From a virus (taxonomy: Duplodnaviria; Caudoviricetes), in IMG/VR virus record IMGVR_UViG_3300025102_000037, positions 1-54,439 of that record: a DNA stretch of 54,439 bases; one strand, 5' to 3'. Every line of letters begins with the position of its first letter. Position 1 is the first letter of the stretch. The notes under the pieces were generated by a model. It made no database searches. It saw only the letters and a program-made list of their open reading frames with translations, and was not told the origin of the DNA. This document shows, one piece after another, positions 1-32,895 of the stretch. Position numbers and translations under genes: made by a program.

Positions 1-1
1 C

Positions 2-10141: not shown

Positions 10142-10788
10142 TGGTAGCAACACTGGTAGGAATGCAAGTAGCTGGTCAAATTATGGGCAGCATTATGGGC
10201 GGATATGCTCAAGCGGAACAACATGCTAGACAAGATATGCAGTTTAGACAACAGGAGTTTCAGCGTAATCTTGAGGTAGATAGAGTTAATGATATTGCAA
10301 ACCAAAAGAATGCACAAAGACTTATTACTAATAGACAATTGGCTATGTCTGCAGGAAAGCAATATGAAGCTACTTTGCAAGACAACTTACGAGGATTCCA
10401 GGCTAATCAACGAGCTTTATACAATGCATTTGCAGCTAGTAAGTCTTCTACAAAAATGGCATTGGCTGGCAAAAACATGTCAAGTAGCTCAGGAACCGGA
10501 GCAGCTTTATTAAGAATGAGTAAACAGAACGCTAAGATGAGCCATCAAAATTTAATTATGAGTAAAAATATTGCTGATAGAAACGCAGATACTCAGCGTC
10601 AAAATGTATTAAATAGCAGAAACTTAAACATGGAACCCGCGACTCATTTTGTTCCCGGCATTTCTCCAGCTGGCGATCCCGGTGCTGCTATTGCAGCAGG
10701 TTGGATTGGTGCTATTGGAGCAGGTGCTGGGGCTGCAATTGGAGCTGGCATGGGTGGTAGTAAACCTGCACCAGCAGGAGGTGGATAA
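10141..10788 (+). CDS. Internal virion protein B (T7 gp14-like)
   Basis: ~215 aa, A/G/Q-rich with hydrophobic Gly/Ala-rich termini; first of three coupled genes of increasing size. ATG overlaps the TerL stop. Confidence 0.6.
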   Translation: MVATLVGMQVAGQIMGSIMGGYAQAEQHARQDMQFRQQEFQRNLEVDRVNDIANQKNAQRLITNRQLAMSAGKQYEATLQDNLRGFQANQRALYNAFAASKSSTKMALAGKNMSSSSGTGAALLRMSKQNAKMSHQNLIMSKNIADRNADTQRQNVLNSRNLNMEPATHFVPGISPAGDPGAAIAAGWIGAIGAGAGAAIGAGMGGSKPAPAGGG

Positions 10789-13700: not shown

Positions 13701-16022
13701 GACTTTGCTAAAACTATTCAGCTAACTGGTATGATATTTGGCGGTAACTTTGATGAAACTACATTAGCATCTTTGCCTCCAGAATCTCAAAAGTTAGTTA
13801 GAGATGCCCTTGATTATTTCTTAAGTCCTAATAATGGTTCTGTATTCTCAGAACAGCCCGGTTATGTAGGAGCTGAAAAATCTTTTAGAAGATATTTTCA
13901 AGGCGTAATGTCTGATATTCGAGAGCAAGGAGCTAAAATAAGTTACGCAGATCAGCTTAGAGTTTTATACAAATATGCTACTGGCACTGGAATTAATGCA
14001 GATTATATTTTAAATAATCGTATTCAAACACCCAAAGAATCTTTTTCTGATGAGCAAATTGTAGATATCTTGCAACGGTATGTGCCTGCTGATATGGCTG
14101 AAAGACGAGATGCTGAAGAAATGTCAGAGTTTGTATTTAGAGCTATAAACGATAATCAAACCTTAGATGGCATTAATGCTTTTACTATAATGAATGTATT
14201 AAATAGACAAAACGCTGAAGAACGACCCTTTGTTCTTGGTGAATTAGATCCTGAAGCATTATTCTTTATGGCTTTAAAACCATACGAACTTCCGTTTGAT
14301 ATGCGATATGAATCAATGCTTGGTCCTGTAACTGGCTTTATGCCTAGACCTTTTACAAGAAAAGCTGAGTTTGGCGGCAATATTGTTTTTAGTGCAGAAG
14401 ATGCTTTATTTGCTTCATCTATTCAGAAACAATCAGCTGCTCCTTTTGTTAGAAGTTATGTACAACAGCATCAACATCACGATCAATTTGGTGGATTAAC
14501 GGGCGAACAGTTGACACAAGCAGAAGAAATGGCAACGATATTAGCTGAACAAATTTCCAACAGAGATCAATTTGGTCATCCTACAGATTTGCTTACTGCT
14601 ACTGTAGCTTCAGAAATGATTTTAGCTCAAGTCTCTGGTAGAGCATCTGATATGTTAACTAACTTAATGGCGGGTGCGCCTGCGGATATTACTCCTACAG
14701 ATTATTTAGATTTTGCTGGTATTGGACAACTTATCTATACTGCTAGTGCGTATGGAGATACAACAGCTGAAGAGAATATGGCATTTAGATTGCGTGATGG
14801 CACTAGGTTTGCCTCTGTTCCTAATATAAATCCCTTTGGAGAGATCAGTCCTAACCAACAATATATTACAATTGGCGGAAAAACTAGAGTACTGACCTTA
14901 GGAGATATGCAAGAGGGAAGTCTTGGTGGATCTTATATTTATGACAACCCTCAGTCTTTGCCCAATCAATTAGCTGAAGTTTCTCATCTTGTTCGAGATA
15001 CTAAAAGACGGCCCTCTGAAAATCCGTTACTGTCAACAAACAGATATGGTTTTTCTGTATTGCTTGCAGATATGTCTTTAGAAGATCAAAATGAAGTCTT
15101 AACTAGATTAGAAGATAATCAAAATAATATGATTTTAGATTCTTTAGCAGACTTTGGATATATTACAATTAACGATAAAACAGGTATTATTGATATAAAA
15201 GATGATGCCGTACCGGCTTCTACTTTACAAGACGCAGGTATTAGTATTGGTAATATTGATCCTAATCATTTAGTGTCTATTGATGTAGCTTTAGAAATGG
15301 TTCAACAGCCCTTAGAGTTAAAGAAAAGATATTTAGAATACTTAATGGCTGGTAATCAGGGTGCTGACATGAGTGCATTTATGCAGCAAAAAGGTATGAC
15401 AAGTTTAGCTGGATTACCGAGAAGAGTTTCATTGGGCGAAGAAAAAGTAGATTCAAGATTAGGTACTACTCGAACTCAATTTGGTGACTTTGTTGATCCC
15501 GTTACAGGTCAGCGTACTCAACGAACCTATAGACTTCCCTATGAGTATCAACCAATTCAAACCATTAGTCAATTTGATCCAACATATCAACTTGATGAAA
15601 AAGGTCAAATTATTCCAGAAACTTATGTAGAAGGCGGAGATAGAGAAGGATACGGATATGGCGGAGCAAGTAGGCGAAAACTTTTAGGTTTAGTAAGAAC
15701 TGCTACTGCTAATATTGGAAACTTTTTCACTGATGGTGATTCATATGATGCAGCTCTTGAAAGAGGCAGGGCTGCAATGCGGCAACAACCTACTCGGTAT
15801 TTAAGAGATGCTTCTAAATATGATGTTACTGTTGCTAACTTATTAAATATTAGATATAAAAAAGTAGACGCTAATGGCAATCCTTTACAAAGACCCGGAG
15901 TTTCTAGTCCCTTTAGATCACCAGCTCAAAGAATGGGTATAGAGGAATTTGAAGTAGACGAAGAATTGAGAAGGCAATTAGAAGAACAGCAAACACAAGT
16001 TATCCCTGAAGGGATTGGATAA
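10788..16022 (+). CDS. Large internal virion protein (gp15-like position), 1744 aa
   Basis: RBS AGGAGG. Helical, acidic protein between the gp14-like gene and the giant gene; no catalytic motif recognised. Confidence 0.55.
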   Translation: MPRPDNKRAKQGRPTDPRTTVFQEAFTPNMPSAQQNVFIKPGPEIIDQPSKTSYGNMVPGPSGELEVLKGIVGGFNKGVDAYNRVHQDRVKRDREKADKIFNQEYVKVTLADGSTDMVKKGGRQHTKYLEEQKVDPDTITSMTDGTDVSSFEHKRERLQGLLGGMTREGRQYTKTKLNSAGKVHQRNLDQQAANQLRIDLAGAKTETEREAVLDAAETNGYVENGDEWTMIQVERAKIATRQADAAESMALSEFEKDWRMAYNEMDVADSRALGRDFITDRIIDSGVFDDILKVKEFDAKGNKKDEKDIKAARELAYDSAVDLQAKIENMADDFEVKQSELQRQHREYLEKANDEEFYANWDGMDTAKKLKNLSSWETRLKTTKTRQGLEFDEDALRVEKTKLLKEMLDDLSSDDTGSLLLRLADDLGIDGATNFNGRDLAELVTRRLGDALGLTEQLENDNVHTQSAFNSAEDAFVSDIATQQDRLRTFVLSRGSMNLYEQAAIQEEIVGLDTRKDLYQKADEAGKIKILTDLNFLGPPTDLDGEIGRTLDGPEWQDLYEGMAQAQAQSYEANFTARINENIKDVTLDPTKPLLTYEDWLSDTDYRVSYIDSRLTSLDGNTDFLVEFVETTDPEARVKLLAEALEGKGNRPETIRALTEKMSQQLGDEQRKFGQLSSSASSDLMRRQAAARAALENQSLREKAVAALNKNGLDISSVTQLPKDTDHSGKVNREAYRLVSTDAYVNGWNALSSRALPSALYDSTTPGGQILNTLISDEGFRPALEALREGDVAAIGEWITGLEEDGKLQQQDTQAVGEILQILDYSTYSGAGGFTVRRYDTPIAMKLQASMLAQVVNLEGKTYTIDDPNLVGTPQEFKFKITEAANFKENITAQIFDAFGELTEGGENERQITLFYRELIEDMYIAKELEAIGTSVDDENERNQRMLAIDSGLFLRSPEFVQAAQEFGLTADFAKTIQLTGMIFGGNFDETTLASLPPESQKLVRDALDYFLSPNNGSVFSEQPGYVGAEKSFRRYFQGVMSDIREQGAKISYADQLRVLYKYATGTGINADYILNNRIQTPKESFSDEQIVDILQRYVPADMAERRDAEEMSEFVFRAINDNQTLDGINAFTIMNVLNRQNAEERPFVLGELDPEALFFMALKPYELPFDMRYESMLGPVTGFMPRPFTRKAEFGGNIVFSAEDALFASSIQKQSAAPFVRSYVQQHQHHDQFGGLTGEQLTQAEEMATILAEQISNRDQFGHPTDLLTATVASEMILAQVSGRASDMLTNLMAGAPADITPTDYLDFAGIGQLIYTASAYGDTTAEENMAFRLRDGTRFASVPNINPFGEISPNQQYITIGGKTRVLTLGDMQEGSLGGSYIYDNPQSLPNQLAEVSHLVRDTKRRPSENPLLSTNRYGFSVLLADMSLEDQNEVLTRLEDNQNNMILDSLADFGYITINDKTGIIDIKDDAVPASTLQDAGISIGNIDPNHLVSIDVALEMVQQPLELKKRYLEYLMAGNQGADMSAFMQQKGMTSLAGLPRRVSLGEEKVDSRLGTTRTQFGDFVDPVTGQRTQRTYRLPYEYQPIQTISQFDPTYQLDEKGQIIPETYVEGGDREGYGYGGASRRKLLGLVRTATANIGNFFTDGDSYDAALERGRAAMRQQPTRYLRDASKYDVTVANLLNIRYKKVDANGNPLQRPGVSSPFRSPAQRMGIEEFEVDEELRRQLEEQQTQVIPEGIG

Positions 16023-16034
16023 GGAGATTATCAC

Positions 16035-19000
16035 ATGGGAGAAGCGGAACGTAGATTATTCGAAATCGAAGATCTTAAGAATGTTACTAGAGATCTTCGG
16101 AGAAGACATACAACTTTAGACGGCGGCCAGAATAATGGGTTAACGACTGAAGACTATAATCGAAACCGCGCAATGGATGCCCAAGATCGTACGCTTGAAA
16201 CCTTAGAAAGAAACTATGCATACAGTGAGCATACTGCAAACTCTCAAGCGGCTAACGCTAGAGAAGCTGCAACCTATGGGCAAAAACGATTTGGCAAGAT
16301 GAAAGACAATGCTGTAATAGCCAAGTTCCTCGGTCATAGAGATCCTAAAGGTGCTCAGGCTTATAATGATTTTATGTATAAGATTGCTACTCCCGATGCA
16401 ACAGGTAATTTAAAAATTGCAGATCAAAGAACAACTGGTTGGGCCGCTGCTTCTTCCGCCAGTTGGTTCTTATCTAACGCAGAGTTAGAAAGAGGTATTA
16501 CATCTCGAAATGCTAACAATATTAAAATTAATATGAATCTTATGCGAGGCGGTTTACGAGATTATTTTGAAGGCGAAGGTCTTAAAGAATATCGTGGTGA
16601 TGAAGAAATTGAACGAGGAATGGATAGTATCACTGTTGCGGGAGATGGTTGGAATGTAAACCCATTAAACTTTGATGAATCTTTTGATGCTTTTGGATTG
16701 ATGGATTCTCCTGATCTTCAAGCGCTTCGTTATACTGATTCTAATTTTAGTGCCGATACTTATTTAAACGAGATTCAAGAAATTAATCCTGAGTTTGTTT
16801 CTTTAATGAATAAATCCGGCGTTGATATGGATGTTTTAAAACAAACCGGCAACGCTAATGAGTTTTGGTGGAATGTTAACAGAGGCATTGCTATGTTGGG
16901 TGCTGCCAATACTATTGCTCATTGGAAAGAAACAGTTCCAGAATATCAAGAGTGGGCAATGATGGCTAAGGATTTTGTTAGAGATTCTTTAATGAATGAC
17001 CCTGACTTTGCGGGTGAGCTTGTTATTGGCGGGATGTTAGCCTTGTCTACAGGACCTGTTGGAATAGCAGCTCTAACTGGTTTAAAAGTAGCAAAACATG
17101 TTGGCAAGGGTAAGAAGTTTGCTAGAACTTTAGTTAATGCAGCTCGAACCATGAGAAAGGCTGCACAAAAAGCTAACAATGCTTTGCCTCAAAACTGGGG
17201 TCTTAGTATTGGATATGGACTTAGAAAAACTGCTGTAGGTAGATTCTTAAATGTAACTTCAGATGATTTTATTGTAGACGGTATGAAGTTTGGTACCACA
17301 AGAAAATACGGTTCTAAACTTACTGGGTACATGATGGCGGAACTTCCTGCTGGTTTTGTCGAAGAAGGTATTGCTGGAGCATACAATGCTTACAGTATGA
17401 ATCAGACTCAAGTAGGTAGAGATCAAGACCTGTTTAAAGCCTTTATTGATGAGGGTGTTGCAGGGTCTTTGGTTAGAGCTTTTGGTATTAATCCTGCTTT
17501 AAGAAGTATTAACTTTGGTATGAGATACACTGGAGCTAAAGCAGAAAAGTATTTAGTTGATAACTTTGGTAGCATGTTTGATGAAGATGCCGATGGTATG
17601 GGATGGACTCGCAATATTGGTGCATTCTTTCACAGAGCGAAACAAATCACTTCTTTAGATGATACTACTTTCTTATCTAATGAATTAGATGCATTAGATG
17701 TAATGATTGCCTTAGATGAATTAAATATGACTGAGGCAGAAGCGATTGCTGAAATTGAAGGTAGTAATGTACAAGAGCTGGTTAATAAACATCCAGCTTT
17801 GCAAGCAATTGCTACAATGTTAGAGTTTGATAAAGAAGGTAATATTATTGGTAGGGAAACTCTTACTGATGGTAAGAAGGGTGAATTAAAACTTGTTAAG
17901 TTAATTCGTAAAACAAGAGAAGATATTGCCCGGCAAAAATTAGGTATTGATCGTACCGAAGACTTTACCGAACAAGAAGGCGATACCGAAGATGTAAGAA
18001 AGTTTAAAGCTGAGCAAAGAGAAAAGATTGCTAAAGAAGTTAAAGAAGGCACTGTTAGTAAGGATGAATTTAATCTTGCTCTTATGGGGGCCGTCTGGGG
18101 TAAACTGGATAGCGAAGCAAAATCAGCTTCAGAAGCTAGAGCACATAGAGATGCTGCATATTTCCAAATGAGCTTACGATCTTTGGCGTTAGAAAAACAT
18201 CAAGAGATGAAGAAGACTAATCCTAAAGCAACATTCCAAGAAGCCTTTGATGCTGTCTTAGATGATCCCGACTTGTTAATTAAGATGGATCAAGGCGGTG
18301 TTTCTAGAGAAATTGACCAAATTATTGCAGAACAACATCCCGATTTATACGAGACAGCTACAGATGAAAATAGTGGTGAGGAATATTTTGTTCCTAAAAA
18401 AGATACAGAAGATAGAAAGTATAGTGAAGAACTAGCTAAGCATCGCAGAAATGTAGACTTTGATACGCAACTTGCTGCTATTAAAGCACACAGAAAGCGG
18501 CTTGGTATTGTTAAAGATATGCGATTTGCTATTGATGATGCACTGCAAGAAAAAGCAAATACCGCATTCCGCGAGTTAAATAATAAAATTAATCACGAAG
18601 CTAGTTTTAATACTGTTGTTGAATTTATTGAAGCTAACGATGATGGTAGTACGCTTATCATTGACGGAGGCAAAGGTTTAATTGAAGATCTTAATGATGC
18701 TGATATTATTGAAGTAACAGTTAATATGCGTGGTGTTAAAATGCCAATGAGACTTTCTGTGCGTAGACCCAAAGCATTTGAGAGAAAAGGTAGGGGCCAA
18801 ACTCTTAAAACTGTTAAGGTTGAAGTTCAAGCACTAACTGTAGAAAAATATGATAGTGTTAGAGAAATGCTTAACAAGCTTCAAATTGTTACAGGTATTG
18901 ATGAGGTTAAAGCAGCAGAAAAGCTTAGACCTTTAATTAAACAAGCGATTGCAGACAGACTAGGTATTAAAGATGCGTCTGATACTGATCTTGTTGCTAT

Positions 19001-22000
19001 GTTTACAGGCTTGCGTCGAGCTCAAGGAAGAGAATTAACTGAAGCTGAAGCTGATTTAATTAAAGGATTAAAATCGGATTCTAAAAAGAATAGACAAAGA
19101 AAGATTAATTCTAGAACAGCTATGATTGATCTTATCCAAAACGATCTTACAGAAGTAGCTGTAGGCCAGTTAAGTGTACAATATTTTGATGGGATTGGTT
19201 TGGATTCTTCAAATGTTTTAGCACGACTATCTGATCCAGAAGCTAGCAGATTTATTCTTACTATTGAAAATGCAAGAAAAGAAGCACAAGATAATTTGGC
19301 ATTATCCGAAGTCTTAAGCGGTTTAGGTGGTATGTTTAATATTGAAATTGTTCCTGATGCTGATCCTAGAGCGATTGCCGAAAGAGATCTTATTAGACAG
19401 AAAGATGCTGCTAAAGTAAAAGCTATGAACCTTAAGGGCAAAGCATTAACCGCTGAGCTTGATAGATTGGGTCTTAAAAAATCTGGTAACGCAAAAGCTA
19501 AAAAAGAACGTGTGGCTCAAGCGTATGCTAGGCTTTTAGAGGAAGGCAAGCCTATTGATGGTAAACCGGAAGCAGAAGCCAAGCCCGAAGAGCCAGCTAA
19601 AGAGCCAACGGCTGAAGAAACAGAAATTACAGAGATTGAAAGTAGATTAGCTGAAATTGCAAAAATGGAAGCTGAATCAAAAGAAAATAATCAAGAGCTT
19701 GCGGTTCATATTATTGAAGAAAAAGAAAGATTAACTGAAAGGTTAAATGAACTTAAAGAAAAGCAACCTGAAACAGAAGACGAAGGTAGGGGTATTACAT
19801 TTGATCCTGCCGATGCACGAAGACCCGGAGTAGATCAAGAAACTAATGATTTAATGAACAAGTTTCTTCAAGAAGCAACAGATCCTACTTTACCCAGAGG
19901 ATCTATTGAAAGATCAGAAGACAGGCTTGTTGCTCTTAAAAAAATGAAAGACGGTAAAGTTCTGGACGAAAAAGAATCAGATGCTATTGACGCTCTTATT
20001 CGCGAAGAAACGGAAAGATTAGAACGAAGAAAAGCCGAGCAAGTTGAAGAAGAGTCTCCTGTTGAAGTTGAAGTGTTACAAGCTGTAGAGGAGTCTATGG
20101 ACGAGAGTGCTAAAACAACCGACGCAAAAACTGGCGATGCTATTGATCAGGCTAATAAGGATGCTGATAGTGGTGAAATTATTGCTGAAGATGGTACTGT
20201 ATCAGAAGATGGAAAAAAAGCTGCAGCTATTCGTACAGAACGACAGGCAAATACCGATAGGGCAGTTGACTCTCAACGAAAGGCAGAAGATGCAGATACG
20301 AGCAGTCAGCGAGTTAAAGAAAATTACAATACGCGAAGACCAATAATTTTACAAGAGCTTCGTAGTATTGAAGCTGAGAGAGAAAGACTTCGTGAGGAAG
20401 CACGAGAACAAGAAGGCGAAAAATTTGATGACGAAGATTTTGCTACGCGAAAAGATGTTGTTAAGTTAGATCAAAGAGAAGCTAAACTTAAAAAAGAATT
20501 AGCAACTATGGAAGAAGCATTGGGTAATGCATCGCAACGTATAGCAGAAAAAAATAAAGATGCATTGCAAAAGGCACAAGTTAAGGAAGAAGAACTTAAG
20601 GAAAGAGAAAATGCTCTTGCTCCCGATATGGATCAGTCTATTGCTGAAAATGTCTGGGCTCAAATTGAAGTAAGACGTATGAAGAAAGACAAAGCCAACG
20701 ATGCCAGAAGAATTCTTCGTAAACTTAAAGAAAAAAATCCGCAGCCCACTATTGAAGAAATGCATGCAGCTTTGCTAGAGGTAGGTTTTAGTGAGTTTGA
20801 TGCTAAAACAATTGCAAACTTTATGACAGAAGAAGTTAATGGTGCAATTGAAGCTGATAAAAAGTTATCTAAAAAAGAAAAGGAAAGAAAAAAGTTAACT
20901 AATATTCGAGAACGTGGCGATACTACAATTAATCAAGATCACTTTAATACAGCATATGAAGCATTTAAGAAACGATTAAAGACTGAAGCTGAAGGTGAGT
21001 TAACTCAACGAGAGCTGCGTCAAGCAAAAATTATGGCTCTGTATGGTAAAGAGGAATGGGAAAGAGTTCGTGCCGCTAGCAATCCAGATATTGAATTAGA
21101 TATTGCATTAGAAGGTAATGATGCTATTGTTCCCATTAGAGGTAAACCTTTTACTGGTTTAATTAATACTGCCTTTGATCCCGTTGACAGAAACGGTATT
21201 GATATGTCTGACGATGATAAAACAGCCGTTTTAAACGCTAATAATCAACTTGCTTTAATTAAAGCTTTGGAAAGAGCTATTAATAACCTTGCAACTATTG
21301 AAGGCAGAACCACCATTACTAGTGCAGAGTTAGCCAGCTTTGCTTTAGCTGTTGGAAAAAGAAAAGGGTTTGATGTTAATGTAGGTCAACTCTTTGCTAA
21401 AATGAATTGGGCTGTTATCTTTAGAGAATCTATGGTGACAGGTGTTGATGAAGGCGTTGAATACTTTGATCCTGAAAGTTTATTAGATGAGTTAATGATG
21501 CACAAGGCTCGTCTTGAATATAAGACAAGAGGTAGGAAGACTAAGCTTCGAGCATTGGAAGCACAAAAAGAATCTCTTAGTCGCGATGAGCACTTGCAAG
21601 ATGAAGAGTTATTGTTAGAAGAAACTTTAGAAATTGCTGAAGGTGATTCAGATACTCTTAAAGAATTGGGTCGTATTTTATTCAGAAGCGAAACTAGTTC
21701 CTTAAGAGGTCAGTTCTTAGTAGGTATTGATCCTACTAGTAGAAAGTTGGTTAGAACATCTAATAAAGCAGAGTACGAAGCTACAGTCTTAGGTGCTATT
21801 GAAGAACGAATGAAGTTGTATTTTGCACAGCCAAGAAAGTTAGCCAAGATTGTTAACTTCTTAGTAGAAGAAGGATTATTGGATCCCTCATATAGAGATA
21901 ATACATCTCCAGATCAGACGGCACAAAAAATGTATGTGCAAGCTGTAGCTCAATACTTAAGAACATATCCGGGGAATAAGTCTGGTGACTTGTCTTCTTG

Positions 22001-25000
22001 GGGCAATGGCGATATTTCATATTCTTTTGCTGATCAAATTGGTATGGGTATTGTTGATACATTGGCTGGTGAACAAATTGGCACGACTCACGAAATGGTT
22101 GAAGATTACGAAGATGACTATGATTCTAGCGGTGCTAAGATTCATGGTAGTGATCGTATGGATCCAGTTAAGCATCGTGGTGCTCCAATTAAGATTAATA
22201 TGGCTGAACCCATGTTGCCGGGACGTTTAGAAAAACTTAAAGAAGATCATAGATTGATGATGGTTAATCAATTCATTATGGAATTAGATTTAACCGAAGA
22301 GGAAATGGGAATGATCTTTGACTTTACTGATCCTGAAAAAACACCAGATAAGACTGCTGTGGGTGTAGTTGCAGATAGATCTAAGTTTATTGCTGGTGAA
22401 AGACCAATGCCTAGAATTATCTTTGCTGATCCAACCGCTAATCTTCAATCTAGAAAAAAGTTATTAGAAGACATGGCTTTTGCTTTATCAGGACTGCATG
22501 ATGTTCTTTTGTCTAGTATTCACGACTCTGTAAACAATCAAGTGTATGGGGAAAGTATTCCTAGTGGTTTCTTAGATGAAGGAATTGTTTCTGAACTGTA
22601 TGAACGTCATGGTATTGGCTTACCCGGAACTACGGTTGCTATTCCGGGCAGAGAAGATGCCTTAGGACGGGGTGCTGGTGAAGCTGGTGGCTTTGGAGTT
22701 GCTGGTGCTCGCTTTGGTACACTGGCCTATCACGCGGCTCGAAGCTACGGCAAAATGTATCCAGTGTTTAGAGATACTGCTATTGAAGGATTGGCTACAT
22801 GGTCTGCCTTTAGTAAAGCAATCAATGAAGCCACTGATATTGGCATTAAGTCTGCGGAAGAAGCTTTAAGCAAAGATACATACTTTGACGGTAACTTTAA
22901 TGGTATTCACCACAAGATGGCTTTGTCATTTACATTTACAGAAATGGAACTTGATTGGTCATTTCCTACAGATAAATTAAGAGCTGCCATTGCAGACAAG
23001 GGAGATGCTTTAGATAGGTTCTTGTTTGATCATCATGAGATGATGGGTAACAAATTTGTTGGTCGATATAAGAATAGAAACAAAGAAGATTATTATATTA
23101 AGAGTGCTCACGATATCTTGTTAGCTTTATTTAAACGGGCGTATCAAGGAACGGGACCTGAGCAAAAGCTAGCACAAGATACTGTGGAAAAACTGCAAGA
23201 GATTGGCTTCCTTCCAGAAACCTTATCTGTTGCAACATTCGAAGACGGTATTACAATTGATAATCTTTTGGATGGTGAAGAGTATGCTAAGGTTCGAGCA
23301 TTGTTTAAAAAACCAGTGATGACCTATCTTTATGGGGCTAAAAAAGATACTATCAATAAAGAATTTAAAAACTTTTTGGTAGATGAGATGGGATTAAATG
23401 CTACAGAAGCTTCAAAAGTTTCAGATCCTCTTACAAGAATTGCACTTGGCTTTGGCTTAAAGAGTAGACAGATTGCTCTTACTGATCTAACTAATAAAGA
23501 TCGAACAGAAGATCCGTTATTAAAAAATATTTTAGGCGATGACTCTCAGTTAGATTCTATCTTAAAAGCTATGCGTACTCGTATGGATGCTCATGGGTTT
23601 ACCGATGACAATCAAAGAAAACTTAGAGAACATATTAGAAACATGATGGTTGATCCAAGCAACCCCATGGCATTGGAAGATATTACCTTTAACAATCTTG
23701 CATTCCAAATTCAAATGCGTGATTCTATGATTGAAGGATTGATTCAAGGACAACTTGGCTACCAGCCCGGAACACCTGAGTATAACCGGATGAAGTCTAA
23801 GATTAATAAAACAATGCAAGCAGCTTCAGATAAACAAATGGAGTTCTTGGGAAATAGAATTAGAAAGGGTATTGAACGATTATCTGCTCCTGCCTTGACT
23901 AGTGATACTCCTCTTTTAAAATTAACCGATAAAGAATTAGAAACTGTACCTAAGGTTGTTGGTATTCTTTTGACTAAACCTAAATCAGAATGGTCACAGT
24001 TTGAAGAAGTGAAACCATACTTAGATAAAAATGGTAACATTAGTGATGAACCTGTAGGGGAAACTTTAAATCTTAAAAAGAATATGGGTTCCTTTATCCG
24101 TCACATTAGAGTAGAAATTAATGAAGGCATTACAAGAGAAGAAGCTCAAGAAGTTCAAAAGGAAGCAGATGCTGCTATCGAGCCACAAGAGGGTCTATTC
24201 CAAGCAGTAAAAGCTATGGGCGAAGTCGGTAGAAAACTAGACATGGTTGCTCTTGATGAGCTAATGGAGTTTGCTGGTATTTCCGTTGGCGATCCTAATA
24301 TGCGAAATACTCTTGAAAAATACTACAAAAATAATCTTACCTATCGTGGTATTGGTAGAGATGGCTATGCTGGACGCTGGTACGGCACTGAGCACGAGGG
24401 AACTCACCAAGGACCCAAGGGGGCTCAGGATCAAGGGGTAGCCGCTGACGAGCCCCTGCTGGCTATGGGAGCTATGCTTAAGGCTCGTAATGAGGTTAAT
24501 TTTGATAAGGCAGAACAAATGTTTGCTAGGTATTTATTACACCGCACGGCAAATGTTCATACAAATGTAGAACATGTTATTGTTAAAATTGCCAAACAAA
24601 AATTAGAAGGTGAAAAAGATCCTGATCAAATTAGAAGACTAAAAGCAATTATTGCAATTATGACTCCCGATAATGAGTTAACACCAGAACAAAGAGTTGA
24701 ACGCGATATTCAATTCTTTGAAGATTGGCATTCACAATATGAAGTTGCTAAGGCTGTTGAAGATGCAGTTAAAACCCAAGGTGGGTTTGAAAGTTTAACT
24801 GATTCAGAAAGACAGCAGGTTAAATTAAGCTCTATGTTAACACAAGCCACTGCTGCTCATGGTATGGATCCTGAAACTGTAGACACACCAGCTACAACTG
24901 TAGAAGAACTTGAAGATCGTAAGATTAATTTGGGGCAGAATCATGGTATGTTTGCCACTAGGGCAAAAGCTTTTGATACCTCGTTTAGAAACTTAGGTGT

Positions 25001-28000
25001 GCCGGAATTTAAAAAGATTAGAGTTAAACGAATTTTACAAGGCACCGGAATGGTTACAGGTAAGATTGAAAGCCTTCGAGACTTTATGGATAATGCCGAA
25101 GAGTCAGATGCTTTAATGATTGAGCAAGAACATGTAAACAATCTTGTGGAAAATCCATATAGCACTGAACCAAATGATTTGCTTTATCCTGAATTAAATA
25201 TTGCTGAAAGCAGTGATATTGCTATGCAGGCTAGCAGACAAACTATTCAAAAGTATGCTACATCATTAAGAACTAAACTTATTAGATTTGCATATGATCA
25301 TGGATTAATTGAAATGATTCAACGTGGCGAATGGCAGCGTGTTGACTATCTTATGAAGGTTCGTATTATCAGAGATAGAAACCACGAGCAACGTAGAACT
25401 GAGTTAAACAGACTCCCTGCTGAATTGTCACGAGAAGAATTAACTAAGAGACGCGAAGAAATTATCCATAGATACAGAAGAAAGACTGCAAGGGAAATTA
25501 AATTAATTAATCAAAGAGCAGAAGAAAATGCAGATGCAGTTAGCACGATTGTAGAAATGGCTCCCGGTGGAAATGTGTCTACTATTTCTACAGGAACCTT
25601 GGTAAACAAAGATGGTACGTCTAAGAATCTTGGAGAGATTTTAAATACTTTAAGAAACGAATTGAATAACCTAGGTGCATACGGAGCATTGTCTCCTGTT
25701 GAAGGCGTAGCCATGGATGACTTATCTAGAGCTGTGTTTGTTACAGAAGAAACAGCTGACAGACCTAGAATTGTTCACGCTTCAGATGCTGCTCACATTC
25801 TTACTCTTATTATTGATATGCAAGATACTGCAGATTTCTTACGAACTGAGGGAAGAGAGTTAGTTGAAACTATTATTAAGAGAAACGATCTTGATATTAC
25901 TGTTGAAGAATTTACTAAAAGGCTCCCTGTTTATGGTAAATATTTGTCGTTAGATGAAGCTATTTTTGTCATTGATGAGTTAGATAAGAAAGAAACTTTA
26001 GCTGACAGAAATATTCTTACCTTAGCTAAGAGTGCATACTTGGGTCAACTAGATCAAGAAGAAACAGAAACAGCTTTGCGAAGCACTAGTTCTAGAAGAG
26101 GTTTGATTGCCGGTACTGGCGAAATTGCTACAGAAAATAAAATTCAAGGTACGACGGGTAGAATTAAACTTACACTGTCTCAAGCAAGGCAGGCTCTTTT
26201 AAATATTAGAAACAGTACTACCTTAGATTTAATTACTGATACACATTACACTGGTATTAGCCACCTTAATAAGCATAAGTCAAGAGGTACGCGTCTTGAT
26301 CAAATTGATCATGTTACAGGCCAACGTGTTTCTGAAATGCGTCTTAGAGATGAAGTACACGCTGAGGGTATGCAGTATCTTGTAGATGAATACAATGTAC
26401 GAGAAGGCAAACCTACAGAATTAAATACCAGTCTTAATGTTGTTGTAGGCGGCAGAGATAGATCTATGTTGTCGCAAACTGAAGGCGGTAACAGAAGGTT
26501 GCCAGCAATGGGTGGCGTGTTTGCCGAAGGTCCGTTTAGAAAACGACGCGGTACTCAACAAGCTATCTATTTAGACTATAGTCAATTTGAGGGGGAAACC
26601 GATCAACTTCATAGCGGTGTATTAAAAGCGCAGTTAACTGCATGGAAACAACTTGAAGTATTGCCCGATGAATTAGAATCATTGGTGGATATCAAGCCGC
26701 CATTTAGAGGGGAAAAACTTAGATTGCTTAAGCAGCAAAGAGTTTTAGGATATCTGGCAACTCACTATTCTATTTCAGATGAAACTAGAATTACTATTCC
26801 TGCGGTAATAAAAGATGGCAAGGTTGAACAAAAGGCAAAATCCTTTGGTTCTGTTGCAGTTAACACTGCGTTAGCTTACATGGAATTGTATGGCAATACT
26901 AAGGAAATGTTTGTAACTGAAGGCGGTGTTACAAGATCCTTAACGTTAGAAGAAGTAATTCAATTGCCAGAAGTTCAACGAATGATTACCAAAGCTGAAA
27001 CATGGGCTACTACTGCATTGATGGTTAGAACTGGAGAGAATGGTAAGTACTATGATGAGGCCAGAGGTTTTGTTATGTGGCTTGCTGAAAATCCTGCAAG
27101 CTTTACCTCGTCAGATGAAAATCAGTTAGATATTCAATTCTTTGAGTATCTTAAGAGCAGAAACAAAAGTATTGATTTGCTTGATAAAGCTGAAATGAAA
27201 GCTGCTCAAGATGCTCTTAGAAAAGCTATTAGTCAAATTGAAGTTGAAGATAGCTTACAAAGCAGAGAAGTTCCGCTAACTCTTACGGTTGATCCTGATA
27301 CTGCTGCAAAGAATCTTGAGAATACTATCTCAGGTGTTGCATTTAAGAGTTCATTAGAGCAGGCTGTTGCTGATGGTTATATCTCCGAAACAACTAAGGA
27401 TATTGTTCTTGCTGTAGTGGCTAAGATTTCTGCTAGCAATGCAGACTTCTTAAATAGAGTTGATATTCAGTTTGGTGCTAATAAGAGTAGAGCTATTAGT
27501 GCTATGGCTGGTGATAGATATCTTATTGAGCTTAGTACAGCTGATGGCAAAAAGAATCCCATGACTGCAGCTAAGATTCTTCTTCACGAATTAGTTCACG
27601 TTGGTACATATAAGTATTTTGATTTAGAGTCTACCTCAGATGAGATGTTACAGATTAAAGAGCTTATGAGATTTAGATCTGTTAATAAGCTTATGTTTGA
27701 TATGACCGCTGCGTTTACTAAGGGCGATAGAACTGCTACATTCCAAAGACATAGACAGTTTATGAAAAAACCAGAAGAGTTTGTTGCTGAGTCTGCTGCT
27801 ATGTTCTGGCTAACAGAAGCAAGAGCAGAGATTGAACAGATTCTTAGTGATGCAGAAGGTAAGATTGAGTTTAGTGAAGTAGAGGATGCGGGTAAACAAA
27901 ACTTTATTAAACGAATTAGAAAAGCAATTGTAAGAAGTATTGACAGCACTAGAAATACTTTAAGATCTATGATTGCTACTATGACAGAGTTTGAAAGTTA

Positions 28001-31000
28001 TTACGGAGAAGAAGGTAAGGCTGAGCTTGCTAAAATGAAAGAGCTTGCTTTACAAGCTGCTGGTATTGTTGTTAAGAATGGCAAACCAGATGCATCCTTA
28101 GTGGCTAAACCAAACAATCATCGTTATGTATTTCATCATGATGGTTCTGAGTCAGGAACAACTACGGAAAAAACAGATGATGAAGTTTTAGATTTATTGG
28201 GCAAGATTAGATCTATTAAGGATCAAATTAATACACAAAGAGGTAAGGATGGAAATGATTTATCTCCAGAAGAATTAAGTGCATTGGGCGATGAATTAAC
28301 TGCAAGAAACAGCGAACTTGATGCTGTTGATGCACTACCAGATGAGTTTGGTACATTTAGAAGCCAAAGAATTATAGCTGAGCAAGAGCTTAGAGATAAC
28401 GGTAGATTTAGATCTGGTGATGGTGTTCTTGTTGTTGACATGAAAGATTTACTGGTAGAAAAACCGGGAGTTGCCTTAAGTATCTTTACTCGTAACCTTA
28501 AAAATAATAATGGTAAAATCCATAGAGGTTTCTTAGATAGAATTGCTTTGAATCGAGAAGGTCTTAATCAACTTACTTTAGGTCCTTCACAAAATGATAT
28601 GACTTATGATTCTATTTATGATTTAGCTGTTCAACTTAGTTTAGTGATTGATCAACAAATTCTTATGACTGAACATATGATTAATCCTGAAGGAACTTCT
28701 GATTTGCTTAGAGCAAAACAAAAAATTGATAATCAACTTGCCTTCTTGCGTGGACAAATTAGAGGCAACAAAGATATTAAACCTGAGCAAGAAAGTAAAA
28801 TTTTGTATTACTTAGCTCATCCTAAAGCAAAACCAGAAACAGGCGAAGAAGCGTTGCATGACGTAGCCAAGTTAATGCGTACACAATTTAATGATGTTAT
28901 TGATTTAGCTAAAGATACTGGACTCTTGTTTAAAGGTTTAGATTATTCTCCAGTTCCAATTAAGATTAATGAACAAGCCTTAATGGAAAACAGAAATGAA
29001 ATTATGAAATCATTAACTGGCGATATTGCCAAAAAGATTCGTGGTAACATGGCAGATGCTATTGACCCTATTACCCTAATGAGTTCTGGGCTGCTTCCTC
29101 CAATGTTCTTAACAAGCAAAAGAACCGATCCTAACTCTTTATCAGAAGATCAAAAGAAAGATTTTATTAATGCTGTTCAGAAACTGGCAAAGACTGAAGC
29201 TGGTCGAAAAGTTATTGAGCATGCAATTGGATTGCTACGTCCAGAACAGAAAGAACAATTTGAAGGATATCCTATTAAAGAATTATTAGGATATAAATAT
29301 CCTGTAGGTGGAGACTCTAATTGGAAGACTCATCATGTTATGAATCTTATGATTGCGTTTGAAACTTTATACGAAAAGGGATTTAAACAACAAGGATTTA
29401 GAAAAGGTGCTGGCAGACATAATGTTTTAATTGAGTTTGTAAATCAAAAACAAAACAGACAACAGTATATTGATGCAGTTAGTAGCCAAATTAATACTAA
29501 TCAATATACTATTATGAGAGCTAATAAGAAATTTAATGTTAGTGCAGTAAGAGCTACGCCCCTTGATCCGGGCAAGTCTACAGACACACCTGTTTATAGC
29601 CCCGCTACTTACAGAGCAGAATTATTTTTAGGCGAAGTTCAAAGCGGTGTTAGATTCTTGGCTGCTGATAAAGTATTTGAGCCTACCTCTTCTGAAATTG
29701 TATCTCAAATGTTGGGTACTGCTGCTGATAGAGCTGATGGTACACACACCTTAGGTGATGCTTTTGTTAAAGATAGTGAAACTTTGATTGAAGGCGTAGG
29801 TACAGGATTAGGTTTTGATGCAGTTGCTACTCTAGCAATTGGACATAGAGCTAGAGGTAATGGCTACGAAATTGAAGGTATACGTTTTGATGACATTCTT
29901 GGTGCATTGTTAGAAACGGGATCAGATGCAATCATTAGAGATCCTGTGCTTACTGAGGGTGTTCGAGATGGACTTAGAAAGAATAGAAGTATTAGCGGTC
30001 TTAGGGATTCACTAAAGGTTGTTCAAAATAAATATGATACTCTAGCGGGTCGAAGAGTTCGTGTTGATAAGACTCAGGGCTCTGGGTTGATAAACCGAAT
30101 TGCCTCTATGGGTAGTGATCTTGTGCTTGCGTCCTATGGTGGTAACTTAGCTTTGGCTACCTCTATTGTGGAAGGTACTGCTACTGCATTCCAAATGGCT
30201 GGTCGAGGTGATATGTTGCGTGGTCCTGCTATGTTGTTAAAGTCTATGTTAATGGGCGGTGCTCAAGGTACGTTGGGTGGATTGGTAAAAGCTGGTAGAT
30301 TGTTTGGATTTGAGTCTAATAGATTCCAAATTAAAAGCACTGCTGCAGAGTTATCCTATGCGTTTGAGCATACAAAAGTTAGAGGAATGGAAACAAGTAG
30401 CGATGATCCAAGTTTAGTAACAGAAGGCACTATGTCTAAAATTGGAGCATTTGTTGGACAAGTTCCTAGATCATTAGCTGATGCAGCTACTGGTGCGTCA
30501 TCTGGTGTTACTAACGGAATTAAATTTGCTGTTGAGGGATTAGCTATTAATACTTTAAATAAATTAATTCGTAGTGGCGGCTTAATGAAGATGGCCAAGT
30601 TCTTAGAAACTGATAAAGGTAAAGAACTACTGGCTTTAGGTGAGTCTGAAAACATAGCAACATCTAAATTGTATAGCCAAGTTAAAAGAATTCTAAAGGG
30701 TAGTGGCCTTTCTGATTTTGCATTCTTGGGTAAACATGATGTAAAAGTGTTTATGGCTATGATGGATTCAGGTGTATTACGTCCTGATTTCTTAAAAGAT
30801 TTAAATGATTTAATTAACGTAGCTGGCTTAGAACAGTTTATCTTTGATGGTTCTGCGGCTAAGTATAGTCCAAGAAGTTCTGCACTAACTCATATTGCCC
30901 AACTTCAAAGAGCCGCGTTAATGACTCAGGATAAAGCTAAGCGTGACAGATTTATGAATACGCTTAGTCAAATTAAAGAATATGTAAACAGAGAGATTGA

Positions 31001-32028: not shown

Positions 32029-32478
32029 ATGTTATCAGCTTTTCTTAATCCTGAAATGTTATCCCTGCTGACGGGAAGTGTCACAGGGTTTATCTTTAAG
32101 AGTATGGCGGAGAAACGAAAAAATGAACAAGAAAAATTTATGCGAGTACTTCAGGCTCAAGAGGCATCGGATGACTCAGCGAATCAAGCTGCTGAAAGAG
32201 TTAGTGATGCAGGAGGCAAGCTGGTTAGGCGTTGTATTGTTATATGTATTTTGTTCGCTACTATTATTGCTCCTTTTATCATTGCTTTCAATGACGGGAT
32301 AACTACAGTAGTGGAGCATACTGAGACAGTGTATGGATGGTGGGATCTTTTGAAGATGTTCCCTGAAGAGAAAACTATATTTACTGAAGTTGACGGGTTT
32401 TTATTTACTCCTGAGAATAGAAATATTCTAGTGACTATCGTAGGATTTTACTTTGGTCAAGCTGTGAAAGGGCGATAG
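32029..32478 (+). CDS. Putative holin (3-TM type)
   Basis: RBS AAGGAG. Three hydrophobic stretches and a C-terminal IVGFYFG motif; last gene of the AT-rich late block. Confidence 0.65.
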   Translation: MLSAFLNPEMLSLLTGSVTGFIFKSMAEKRKNEQEKFMRVLQAQEASDDSANQAAERVSDAGGKLVRRCIVICILFATIIAPFIIAFNDGITTVVEHTETVYGWWDLLKMFPEEKTIFTEVDGFLFTPENRNILVTIVGFYFGQAVKGR

Positions 32479-32853: not shown

Positions 32854-32895
32854 GGCACCGCTGGGCTACCCTTAGCGGGGTAGCTCAGTCATTCC
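32854..32895 (+). repeat. Hairpin CTGGGCTACCC-TTAGCG-GGGTAGCTCAG (copy 2); also a degenerate direct repeat of 33425-33466
   Basis: 11-bp stem with one G-T pair. The flanks GGCACyGCTGGGCTACC and GGGGTAG...CATTCC recur at 33425. Confidence 0.8.

What the first reader, a model, noticed from the sequence alone, without database searches (positions are those of the whole stretch)
22500..25850. T7-family RNAP core hidden inside the 5327-aa internal virion protein
Seen, in the correct order: YFDGNFNGIHH at aa 2283 (T7 motif A is FDGSCSGIQH), KEDYY (T7 QDIY), RALFKKPVMTYLYG at aa 2421 (exact Rx3Kx7YG; T7 RSVTKRSVMTLAYG) and PRIVHASDAAHIL at aa 3244 (T7 PNFVHSQDGSHL; PNYIHSLDASHM in this phage's canonical RNAP). 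The last segment is ~810 aa after motif B versus ~140 in T7, implying a very large insertion. Caveats: no clean IHDS follows it (best candidate IIDMQDTADF), and no DxRGR is present. IHDSVNNQVY at aa 2162 sits where DxRGRVY is expected, so it is either a decayed version of that motif or a permuted motif C. Inference: a divergent virion-packaged polymerase, or a catalytically dead nucleic-acid-binding derivative.
Basis: partly seen in the sequence, partly recalled or inferred. Interest (0 to 1): 0.9.

Follow-up and report, generated by a model that had tools for sequence, protein, structure and literature searches.

The report
RNA polymerase inside giant phage protein
A 5327-residue late protein of an uncultured marine T7-like phage contains a very diverged T7/N4-type RNA polymerase core whose catalytic pieces appear to sit in an unusual order, so the phage may inject its own polymerase as coliphage N4 does.

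Summary
All six strings lie at the stated residues of ORF 16035-32018. The catalytic ones are invariant in every relative that covers them, down to 25% identity.

Independent evidence supports a single-subunit RNA polymerase (ssRNAP) origin:
- 8 of 13 family members hit PHROG RNA polymerase.
- In both AlphaFold models the one confident stretch shared by both models (aa ~2351-2478) ranks T7 and mitochondrial RNAP first among 48,161 chains, Z 9.0-9.2.
- Four motif segments each align to their cognate T7 motif, beating 100 of 100 shuffles.

IHDS at aa 2162 behaves as motif C, giving the order C-A-B-preC. IIDMQD is not motif C, and no T/DxxGR was found.

Downstream, a conserved HExxH segment matches the C1 domain of N4 gp50. 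The whole protein therefore resembles an N4-type virion RNAP, yet the terminase is T7-like.

The palm could not be modelled (pLDDT <50). Convergence of the two Asp residues, catalytic activity and packaging into the virion are all inferred.

Verdict: a real, new variant of a known kind.

The parts
16035..32018 (+). Giant ORF, 5327 aa (P0001). Proposed N4-gp50-like polyvalent ejection protein carrying the RNAP-like module.
   Evidence: Open frame. Full-length relatives of 5138-5311 aa at 41-89% identity.
17019..17078 (+). Hydrophobic segment in the N-terminal region, aa 329-348.
   Evidence: Kyte-Doolittle window mean 1.85. The role of the N4 gp50 NTD at the inner membrane is from PMC13434306 (passage).
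19032..20084 (+). Charged, poorly conserved linker, aa ~1000-1350. In relative L001 the reading frame breaks within the equivalent of this linker, giving ORFs of 1519 and 4058 aa.
   Evidence: E+D 21-26%. Low identity and gaps. L001 ORFs 2938-7497 and 7469-19645.
22500..22550 (+). Motif C-like element (VLLSSIHDS...), aa 2156-2172, with D2164 as candidate second catalytic Asp. It lies upstream of motif A.
   Evidence: H and D kept in 9 of 9. hhalign aligns giant 2158-2185 to T7 806-833, P 0.0054, score 25.2, against a maximum of 19.5 in 100 shuffles.
22659..22718 (+). Conserved Gly-rich loop (GxGAGxxGG...FGT), aa 2209-2228, between motifs C and A. The window's own DALGR here is not conserved.
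   Evidence: Alignments.
22875..22925 (+). Motif A (TYFDGNFNGIHHKMAL), aa 2281-2297, with D2285 as the catalytic Asp candidate.
   Evidence: Kept in 10 of 10. hhalign aligns giant 2283-2305 to T7 535-557, P 0.019, with 0 of 100 shuffles reaching the score.
23082..23459 (+). Fingers segment, aa 2350-2475: the DYY element (T7 QDIY) and motif B / O-helix (R2421, K2425, Y2433, G2434 at nt 23295-23342).
   Evidence: phrog_414 and PF00940 hits map here. AF2 pLDDT 85-92. VIA-align: T7 3e2e_A Z 9.2, mtRNAP Z 8.8, N4 Z 6.3 and 5.8, repeated with model 1.
23460..25751 (+). Insertion of ~760 aa between motif B and the preC helix, mostly helical in the models. No detectable likeness to any RNAP part.
   Evidence: Seven of the 13 other segments tested lie in this insertion; hhalign P 0.24-0.75. 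Models.
24339..24437 (+). Most conserved block of the insertion, aa 2769-2801: T[YF]xGxGxDxx[AS]GRx[YV]...KGA. A T/DxxGR-like string with one extra residue; role unknown.
   Evidence: G2774, D2776, G2780 and R2781 kept in 10 of 10. Predicted beta-hairpin at low confidence. Not aligned to T/DxxGR by hhalign.
25758..25802 (+). PreC helix (DRPRIVHASDAAHIL), aa 3242-3256, equivalent to T7 PNFVHSQDGSHL.
   Evidence: P, H, D and H kept in 9 of 9. hhalign aligns giant 3240-3264 to T7 776-800, P 8.9e-4, with 0 of 100 shuffles reaching the score.
27570..27755 (+). HExxH (zincin-like) segment, aa 3846-3907 (LLHELVHVGTYKY).
   Evidence: HE[LI][VI]H[VI]GT in 6 of 6 full-length relatives. N4 gp50 has its only HExxH at aa 2228, LIHELVHASTF. 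hhalign aligns giant 3846-3907 to N4 2223-2293, P 0.0016. N4 CTD-C1 carries this motif (PMC13434306; PMC5512222).
31158..31367 (+). Two hydrophobic segments near the C-terminus, aa 5042-5063 and 5091-5111, in a Gly-rich region.
10123..16022 (+). Two upstream ORFs of 221 aa and 1744 aa. With the giant they make a small-medium-giant series after the terminase gene.
   Evidence: ORFs. No PHROG hit. A relative of the 1744-aa ORF lies upstream of the giant in L001. N4 gene order gp52-gp51-gp50.

Best explanation
Residues ~2120-3260 of the 5327-aa ORF are a genuine but extremely diverged module of a T7/N4-type single-subunit DNA-dependent RNA polymerase (ssRNAP).

Shown:
- It keeps motif A (D2285), the fingers with motif B (R2421, K2425, Y2433, G2434) and the helix that precedes motif C in T7 (H3248, D3251, H3254).
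- An IHDS element (H2163, D2164) is the best match to motif C and lies 121 aa upstream of motif A. The linear order is therefore C-A-B-(760-aa insertion)-preC.

Inferred: the palm is internally permuted and D2164 pairs with D2285 at the two-metal site.

Shown at the sequence level: about 600 aa downstream lies a conserved HExxH segment that matches the C1 domain of N4 gp50.

Inferred from this: the protein as a whole is built like the N4 virion RNA polymerase, a 'polyvalent' ejection protein. The host phage is nevertheless T7-like in its terminase, primase-helicase, DNA polymerase and two ordinary ssRNAP genes.

Proposed mechanism (inferred):
1. The protein is packaged in the head together with the products of the two preceding ORFs (221 and 1744 aa) and is ejected with the DNA.
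2. Its polymerase module transcribes the first genes to enter the cell. These would be the GC-rich block directly downstream (32.5-38 kb), which encodes a 594-aa ssRNAP.
3. The 594-aa and 812-aa polymerases then take over.
For: Homology to ssRNAP:
- phrog_414 'RNA polymerase' hits the window's sequence at E 8.4e-5 to 1.9e-4 and 8 of 13 family members (best 4.1e-7).
- phrog_2206 'virion RNA polymerase' hits 2 of 13 members (details).
- Pfam PF00940 hits 3 of 13 members (best 2.9e-4) and PF21894 N4_RNAP_helical hits 1 of 13. P0015 carries PF21894 as a precomputed hit.
- Language-model neighbours are N4_RNAP_helical and RNA_pol clusters, score 0.90, which is a lead only.

Fold:
- In two independent AF2 models, giant aa 2351-2478 (the confident stretch they share) ranks ssRNAPs first among 48,161 chains.
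- Model 2: T7 3e2e_A Z 9.2, rmsd 2.6, 93 residues aligned to T7 568-686; mtRNAP Z 8.8; N4 Z 6.3 and 5.8; the next unrelated chain Z 5.2.
- Model 1: mtRNAP Z 9.1 and T7 Z 9.0.

Motifs:
- Each of four segments finds its cognate T7 motif as its best hit against a 65-sequence RNAP profile. The P values are C 0.0054, A 0.019, DYY-B 0.0034 and preC 8.9e-4.
- 0 of 100 column shuffles reach any of the four observed scores.
- The 13 other segments of aa 2020-3400 give P 0.059-0.78.
- All catalytic residues are invariant in 9 of 9 to 11 of 11 members, down to 25% identity.

The preC segment belongs to the core: ESMFold2 ipSAE 0.77, 0.52 and 0.19 (median 0.52) against a best control of 0.00. The tool's verdict is 'weak support'. 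The mark was reached by 58 of 80 solved complexes and 2 of 110 mismatched pairs. The runs agree in at least 17% of contacts, and the partner's pLDDT is at least 49.

gp50-like architecture:
- HExxH match to N4 2223-2293, P 0.0016.
- N4 vRNAP is embedded in an IVP-D homologue (PMC4819975, passages).
- The C-terminal 1528 aa has viral LPD38, LPD39 and LPD1 clusters as nearest neighbours, score 0.97, a lead only.

Late-gene context: tail protein and terminase lie upstream.
Against: - The palm was never modelled. Both AF2 jobs gave mean pLDDT 49.8 and 46.4, with the motif C and A regions under 50. The proximity of D2164 to D2285 is therefore untested.
- Foldseek found nothing.
- HMMER searches against PDB sequences found no RNAP with a single sequence or with two profiles.
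- The window's own sequence has no Pfam RNA_pol hit. The best relative scores 20.2 bits, below the 22-bit cut-off.
- hhalign 'probabilities' are low (2-23%) despite the small P values.
- Z of about 9 is only slightly above what that tool reports as a typical best score for unmatched models (7-8; higher for mostly helical models), and the matched segment is helical (notes).
- No T/DxxGR, thumb, N-terminal domain or specificity loop was detected.
- N4 itself has the canonical motif order.
- D3261, just after preC, is also acidic in 9 of 9 members and could be the second metal ligand instead.
- No proteomic or transcript evidence was examined.
Confidence: 0.6

Rival explanations
1. It is an ssRNAP-derived module with the normal topology. 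The second catalytic carboxylate would be the acidic residue just after the preC helix (D3261), or another undetected motif C. The upstream IHDS would then have a different role, for example as a remnant of a duplicated copy or a structural element.
For: D3261 is D in 8 and E in 1 of 9 members. N4 motif C is FDG, not HDS, so motif C can be degenerate. The palm was not modelled. A PRII string 37 aa before IHDS resembles the PRIV of preC and hints at a duplication.
Against: D3261 lies only 13 residues after H3248 and aligns to T7 W797, inside the helix. The segment 3265-3400 has no likeness to motif C (P 0.54). One member has Glu at this position. IHDS matches motif C with P 0.0054, and H and D are kept in 9 of 9. 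The PRII/PRIV likeness is not significant (P 0.061; 8 of 100 shuffles reach it).
Confidence: 0.17
2. It is a catalytically dead descendant of an ssRNAP. It would be kept as a DNA- or RNA-binding or DNA-translocating module of the ejection machinery.
For: T/DxxGR, thumb and N-terminal domain are not detectable. The module carries a huge insertion and is extremely diverged. The phage already has two ordinary ssRNAP genes.
Against: Every residue that does chemistry or binds NTP in T7 RNAP (roles recalled: D537, D812, R627, K631, Y639, H784, H811) has an invariant counterpart in all 9-11 members down to 25% identity. Surrounding positions vary freely. Dead enzymes usually lose such residues.
Confidence: 0.18
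3. The motif matches are a chance resemblance in a long helical protein, and there is no relationship to RNA polymerases.
For: No database search reaches a curated threshold for the window's own sequence. The motif regexes were written after seeing the sequence.
Against: All five regexes match together in 0 of 5000 shuffles. Eight of 13 members hit the RNAP PHROG independently, always at the same place. The top fold matches of 48,161 chains are ssRNAPs at the homologous residues, in two models. The four segment matches beat 100 of 100 shuffles.
Confidence: 0.03

Closest known systems
Coliphage N4 virion RNA polymerase gp50 (Schitoviridae), a polyvalent ejection protein
   Same: - It is a giant single chain with an embedded ssRNAP module, followed by an HExxH (zincin-like) domain and a long helical C-terminal region.
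- It is encoded among late genes, last in a small-medium-giant series (N4 gp52, gp51, gp50; here 221, 1744 and 5327 aa).
- The phage also encodes a short ssRNAP (N4-like RNA polymerase PHROG hit for the 594-aa ORF).
   Different: - It has 5327 aa against 3500.
- N4 has TxxGR-A-B-C in the canonical order and an FDG motif C. Here the order is C-A-B-preC, with T7-style HDS and PxxxHxxDxxH strings that N4 lacks.
- There is no significant pairwise similarity (best blastp E 0.18).
- The host phage has a T7-like terminase and replication genes. PMC5512222 states that N4-like virion RNAPs occur only in N4-like phages and prophages.
T7 RNA polymerase and other Autographiviridae / mitochondrial ssRNAPs (Pfam PF00940)
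   Same: - Motif A, the QDIY-like element, motif B, the preC helix and the HDS strings are shared.
- The fingers fold matches T7 568-689.
   Different: - Motif C lies before motif A, and 760 aa are inserted between B and preC.
- No T/DxxGR, thumb, N-terminal domain or specificity loop was detected.
- It is embedded in a 5327-aa late protein.
- It scores below the Pfam threshold.
T7 internal virion protein D (gp16) family, as extended by Hardies et al. 2016
   Same: It is the last and largest of three consecutive late ORFs in a T7-like phage. That paper places the N4 gp50 C-terminal domain in this family (PMC4819975).
   Different: No sequence match to any IVP family was obtained here (PHROGs). 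T7 gp16 itself was not fetched or compared.
Permuted-palm RNA-dependent RNA polymerases of birnaviruses and permutotetraviruses (C-A-B order)
   Same: Motif C is moved upstream of motif A in a right-hand polymerase. This is precedent that such a palm can fold and work (abstract starts of PMC4666646 and PMC8310298 in the listing; Gorbalenya et al. 2002 is recalled and was not seen).
   Different: It is an unrelated polymerase family (RdRp). Here the permutation is inferred from sequence only.
Virion RNAPs fused to other virion proteins (Thermus phage P23-45 tape-measure-fused RNAP)
   Same: A virion-borne RNAP transcribes pre-early genes, including the gene of a second, non-virion RNAP (abstract start of PMC10770324, listing). 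This is the same cascade logic as proposed here.
   Different: That enzyme is homologous to cellular multisubunit RNAPs, not to the T7 type.

Membership tests
T7-like single-subunit RNAP (Pfam PF00940 RNA_pol) | Score above the curated family threshold | tested here: not met
   No PF00940 hit for the window's sequence. The best relative, P0007, scores 20.2 bits against a cut-off of 22. PHROG 414 hits at E 1e-4 to 4e-7.
T7-like single-subunit RNAP (Pfam PF00940 RNA_pol) | Motif A Asp and motif B Rx3Kx6-7YG | tested here: met
   D2285 is kept in 10 of 10 members; R2421, K2425, Y2433 and G2434 in 11 of 11. They align to T7 535-557 and 559-669.
T7-like single-subunit RNAP (Pfam PF00940 RNA_pol) | Motif C (HDS) downstream of motif B, preceded by the PxxxHxxDxxH helix | tested here: not met
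   The HDS element lies at aa 2163, upstream of motif A. The preC helix is at aa 3244 with no motif C after it.
T7-like single-subunit RNAP (Pfam PF00940 RNA_pol) | T/DxxGR motif upstream of motif A | tested here: not met
   There is no conserved [DT]xxGR. Segments 2020-2282 do not align to T7 ~421. A DxxxGR block at 2776-2781 lies elsewhere.
T7-like single-subunit RNAP (Pfam PF00940 RNA_pol) | Fingers (O-helix) fold | tested here: met
   VIA-align Z 9.2 and 9.0 to T7 568-689 and Z 8.8 and 9.1 to mtRNAP. These are the top ranks of 48,161 chains in two models.
T7-like single-subunit RNAP (Pfam PF00940 RNA_pol) | Palm fold with the two catalytic Asp residues side by side | tested here: inconclusive
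   pLDDT is under 50 over motifs C and A in both AF2 jobs.
N4-like virion RNAP polyvalent protein (Iyer et al. 2017) | RNAP module fused to a zincin-like HExxH domain in one giant polypeptide | tested here: met
   The HExxH at aa 3851 is conserved in 6 of 6 relatives. It matches N4 2223-2293, P 0.0016. The definition is from PMC5512222.
N4-like virion RNAP polyvalent protein (Iyer et al. 2017) | Encoded among late virion genes | tested here: met
   Tail protein and large terminase lie upstream on the same strand.
N4-like virion RNAP polyvalent protein (Iyer et al. 2017) | Carried by an N4-like (Schitoviridae) phage | tested here: not met
   The nearest terminases are T7-like pelagiphages, roseophages and cyanopodoviruses at 35-39% identity. 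A T7-type primase-helicase and DNA polymerase are present.
N4-like virion RNAP polyvalent protein (Iyer et al. 2017) | Protein present in virions and injected | not testable with these tools
   The phage is uncultured and no proteome was examined.
T7 internal virion protein D (gp16) family | Sequence or profile similarity to IVP-D | not tested
   There are no PHROG or Pfam hits outside the RNAP segment. T7 gp16 was not fetched. Only the position in the gene order supports this.

The most novel reading that the evidence does not exclude
This would be the first DNA-dependent polymerase of the Pol I / T7 superfamily with an internally permuted palm (C-A-B, as in birnavirus RdRps). It would be active and virion-packaged in a T7-like phage. 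It would start a cascade of three single-subunit RNAPs (giant, then 594 aa, then 812 aa) from the sequence-invariant hairpin elements at the leading end of the genome. That would link the N4 and T7 infection strategies in one lineage.
Probability: 0.3. Interest if true: 0.9.

Novelty: new variant of a known kind. Interest (0 to 1): 0.74.

Why it matters
[quoted passage not shown] Here the same architecture (RNAP plus HExxH domain in a giant late protein) sits in a phage whose terminase, replication genes and two further RNAPs are T7-like. This fits Hardies' proposal that N4 gp50 is an IVP-D that acquired a polymerase (PMC4819975). It also suggests that the acquisition is older or more frequent than thought.
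- The apparent C-A-B order would be a new topology for this polymerase superfamily. It makes a simple, testable prediction: D2164 is catalytic, and D3261 is not.
- The family is small. Six giant proteins were found, plus fragments. The phage group is large: 355 relatives of the canonical RNAP at E <= 1e-10, on contigs of 55-71 kb.
- My literature searches listed no report of a virion RNAP module in T7-like phages or of a permuted ssRNAP. Supplements were closed, and subscription journals are not covered.

Tried and rejected
- blastn and tblastn of the region against 50,697 phage records: no match.
- phmmer and two profile hmmsearches against PDB sequences: no RNAP. The best hits were unrelated, E >= 0.039.
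- Pfam on the giant in three pieces: nothing relevant.
- Genome-contig scan: 186 pattern matches, none confirmed.
- AF2 on aa 2120-3319 (13-row alignment) and on aa 2020-2475 (10 rows): the palm was not resolved. Foldseek on the second model: no match at E <= 0.001.
- IIDMQDTADF as motif C: rejected. Only D3261 is conserved, it aligns inside the T7 helix, and nothing downstream matches.
- DALGR at aa 2208 as T/DxxGR: rejected, because the Arg is lost in the more distant relatives.
- DPVKHRGAP at aa 2043 as T/DxxGR: no support (P 0.59-0.75).
- Duplication origin, tested through the PRII(2126)/PRIV(3244) likeness: not significant (P 0.061; 8 of 100 shuffles).
- N4 gp51 and gp52 against the 1744-aa and 221-aa ORFs by blastp: no hit for those two queries at E <= 1.
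- A wider family of early-region hairpins: only the CTGGGCTACC...GGGGTAG type is conserved.
- Complex prediction gave 'weak support' only.

Full report
**The object.** The window is one virus record of 54,439 nt. All large ORFs lie on the + strand. The order is:
- a tail protein (phrog_457), two unassigned ORFs and a large terminase (8444-10141);
- ORFs of 221 and 1744 aa, then the 5327-aa ORF at 16035-32018;
- a block of small ORFs with GC ~0.50 against ~0.38 elsewhere (32.5-38 kb), which ends with a 594-aa ssRNAP gene;
- an 812-aa canonical ssRNAP, a T7-type primase-helicase and a DNA polymerase.

The terminase is 35-39% identical to those of T7-like pelagiphages, roseophages and cyanopodoviruses. 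The canonical RNAP is at most 28% identical to any in the 25 rows listed (a spread down the ranking of 2742 matching records, all under 60%). This is a distant, uncultured member of the T7 supergroup, not an N4-like phage.

**Observation.** Each of five T7-derived regexes matches exactly once in the protein. All five match together in 0 of 5000 shuffles of it; the regexes were written after the fact.

**Relatives.** The family is small.
- The word-indexed search found 6 giant proteins including the query, at 41-89% identity and 3786-5311 aa.
- The exhaustive representative search found 9 proteins at E <= 0.001: one full-length giant (P0002), a 1038-aa protein at 29% identity, and seven shorter proteins (77-670 aa), probably fragments.
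- The 'shorter' search added one protein of 1642 aa.
- Contig scans gave 2 viral and 5 metagenome loci, and none in prokaryote genomes.

Conservation in the combined alignment of 16 sequences, among the members that cover each site:
- H2163 and D2164: 9 of 9.
- F2284, D2285, G2286, N2289, H2292 and K2294: 10 of 10.
- D2352-Y-Y: 10 of 10.
- R2421, K2425, M2429, Y2433 and G2434: 11 of 11.
- P3244, H3248, D3251 and H3254: 9 of 9.

The members range down to 23-30% identity, and neighbouring positions vary. D3264 is kept in 3 of 9.

**Is it an RNA polymerase relative?**

Sequence evidence:
- The window's own sequence has no Pfam hit.
- It does hit phrog_414 'RNA polymerase' at E 8.4e-5 to 1.9e-4. 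Eight of 13 members hit it independently (best 4.1e-7), always with the DYY-to-motif-B stretch against profile positions ~526-658 of 816.
- Two of 13 members hit the N4 virion-RNAP PHROG. Three of 13 hit PF00940 (best 2.9e-4; 20.2 bits, below the cut-off of 22). One of 13 hits PF21894.
- HMMER against PDB sequences found nothing.

Fold evidence:
- Two AlphaFold2 jobs failed overall (mean pLDDT 49.8 and 46.4). Both gave a confident segment at giant aa ~2350-2475, with pLDDT 85-92 in the second model.
- An all-against-48,161-chain structural search with that model ranks T7 RNAP first (3e2e_A, Z 9.2, rmsd 2.6, 93 residues, T7 568-686). Human mitochondrial RNAP follows (Z 8.8), then N4 mini-vRNAP and the N4 gp50 RNAP domain (Z 6.3 and 5.8). 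The next, unrelated chain has Z 5.2, and Pol I family members have Z 4.2-4.8.
- The tool warns that Z 7-8 is common for unmatched models and that higher scores are common for helical ones. What counts here is that the family predicted beforehand comes first, at the homologous residues, in both models.
- Foldseek on the whole low-confidence model found nothing.

Language-model neighbours of aa 2020-2475 are N4_RNAP_helical and RNA_pol clusters (score 0.90; a lead only).

**Which motif is which?** I built a 65-sequence profile of T7-like RNAPs: T7, LUZ100, a phiKMV-like phage, NATL1A-7, the window's RNAP and 60 of the 120 listed relatives. I then compared short family-alignment segments with it. 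Each finds its cognate motif as its best local match:

| Giant residues | T7 residues | Motif | P | Score |
|---|---|---|---|---|
| 2158-2185 | 806-833 | C | 0.0054 | 25.2 |
| 2283-2305 | 535-557 | A | 0.019 | 20.7 |
| segment 2340-2470 | 559-669 | QDIY to B | 0.0034 | 29.4 |
| 3240-3264 | 776-800 | preC helix | 8.9e-4 | 28.4 |

- None of 100 column shuffles per segment reaches the observed score. The shuffle maxima are 19.5, 19.4, 22.9 and 21.9.
- Thirteen other segments between aa 2020 and 3400 give P 0.059-0.78, and none aligns to T/DxxGR, the thumb or the specificity loop.
- The hhalign 'probabilities' are low (2-23%), so each match alone is weak. The case rests on four independent cognate matches plus invariance.

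The linear order is therefore C(2163)-A(2285)-B(2421)-[760 aa]-preC(3244). N4 gp50, read from its record, has the canonical order TxxGR(1417)-A(1556)-B(1663)-C(1948).

A complex prediction tested whether the distant preC segment (aa 3170-3319) docks on the core (aa 2119-2475).
- It gave ipSAE 0.77, 0.52 and 0.19 (median 0.52) against 0.00 for all three controls. The tool calls this 'weak support'.
- The mark was reached by 58 of 80 solved complexes and 2 of 110 mismatched pairs.
- The runs agree in at least 17% of contacts, and the partner's pLDDT is at least 49.

**What is not shown.** The palm itself was never modelled. It is an inference that the IHDS hairpin pairs with the motif A strand and that D2164 sits beside D2285. 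The rival is that D3261 is the second carboxylate. Against this:
- D3261 aligns inside the T7 helix, at W797.
- It lies only 13 residues after H3248.
- It is Glu in one member.
- Nothing resembling motif C follows it.

It is still not excluded. A PRII string 37 aa before IHDS resembles the PRIV of preC. That would fit an origin by duplication and decay, but the likeness is not significant (P 0.061; 8 of 100 shuffles). The most conserved block of the insertion, DxxxGRx[YV] at 2776-2783 (D, G and R kept in 10 of 10), looks like T/DxxGR with one extra residue. It sits where no simple circular permutation would put it, and I leave it unexplained.

**The rest of the protein.**
- About 600 aa after preC lies LLHELVHVGTYKY (aa 3851), conserved in 6 of 6 full-length relatives.
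- N4 gp50 has a single HExxH, LIHELVHASTF at aa 2228. The two segments align with P 0.0016.
- The N4 literature places that motif in CTD subdomain C1 (PMC13434306, passages). [quoted passage not shown]
- The last 1528 aa have viral 'large polyvalent protein' clusters (LPD38, LPD39, LPD1) as nearest language-model neighbours (0.97; a lead only).
- Hardies et al. describe N4 vRNAP as embedded in a homologue of T7 internal virion protein D (PMC4819975, passages).
- The small-medium-giant series (221, 1744 and 5327 aa) parallels N4 gp52, gp51 and gp50. It also parallels T7 gp14, gp15 and gp16 (recalled). A relative of the 1744-aa ORF precedes the giant in L001.
- No direct sequence link to an IVP family was obtained.

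**Mechanism proposed (inferred).**
1. The protein is packaged and ejected like gp50.
2. The polymerase module transcribes the leading, GC-rich early block, which begins ~460 nt after its own stop codon. That block encodes the 594-aa RNAP with all canonical motifs.
3. The two ordinary RNAPs then follow.

Invariance of every catalytic counterpart argues for an active enzyme rather than a relic. My odds:
- ssRNAP homology: ~0.95.
- IHDS is motif C (permuted order): ~0.6.
- Active polymerase: ~0.55.
- Virion-borne: ~0.7.

**Novelty.** Searches of the held library listed no report of a virion RNAP module in T7-like phages or of a permuted ssRNAP. Permuted C-A-B palms are known only for some RdRps (abstract starts).

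Noticed in passing
window 35831-37615 (+): A third ssRNAP gene of 594 aa (P0136). It has complete canonical motifs (DFRGRTY, DATCSGFQH, RSELAKPTVMLTGYAS, PNLIHSLDACLVH, IHDSFGS) but no long N-terminal domain. It lies in the GC ~0.50 early block. In L002 it is 91.7% identical over the 448 aa that the locus covers, although the giant there is only ~42% identical.
   Followed up: partly
window 32854-32895 and 33425-33466; L001 20693-20713 and 21763-21783; L002 20381-20401: A hairpin element, CTGGGCTACC-(6 nt)-GGGGTAG, lies in intergenic spots of the early block. There are 5 copies in 3 phages. The stems are sequence-invariant and the loops come in three versions. No T run follows. The two-copy pattern is matched in 0 of 100 shuffles. 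It could be a promoter (N4 vRNAP uses hairpin promoters; recalled), an RNase III site or a terminator.
   Followed up: partly
window 32029-32478 and the early block, compared with L001 and L002: The 149-aa ORF just after the giant is 98.7% (L001) and 91% (L002) identical. The giant itself is only 41-48% identical in those phages. This is either strong mosaicism or very unequal rates across the junction.
   Followed up: no
L001 2938-7497 and 7469-19645: In one relative the giant is read as two overlapping ORFs (1519 and 4058 aa) in different frames, meeting within the equivalent of the charged linker. This could be a split gene, a frameshift or an assembly error.
   Followed up: no
window 24339-24437 (giant aa 2769-2801): This is the most conserved block of the 760-aa insertion, T[YF]xGxGxDxx[AS]GRx[YV]...KGA, with D, G and R invariant in 10 of 10. 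It resembles T/DxxGR with one extra residue but sits in an unexpected place. Its role is unexplained.
   Followed up: partly
window 1-3742 and 51854-54439: No portal or major capsid gene was recognised, and the first ORF is open at the 5' end. Contigs carrying relatives reach 66-67 kb. The 54.4-kb record, rated 100% complete, may therefore be a fragment.
   Followed up: no
canonical RNAP 42424-44862: The canonical RNAP has 355 relatives at E <= 1e-10. The 120 listed are at least 51% identical to it, on contigs of up to ~71 kb. The giant has only 6 detectable full-length relatives. The phage group is large, but the RNAP-bearing giant is either rare or evolves fast.
   Followed up: no
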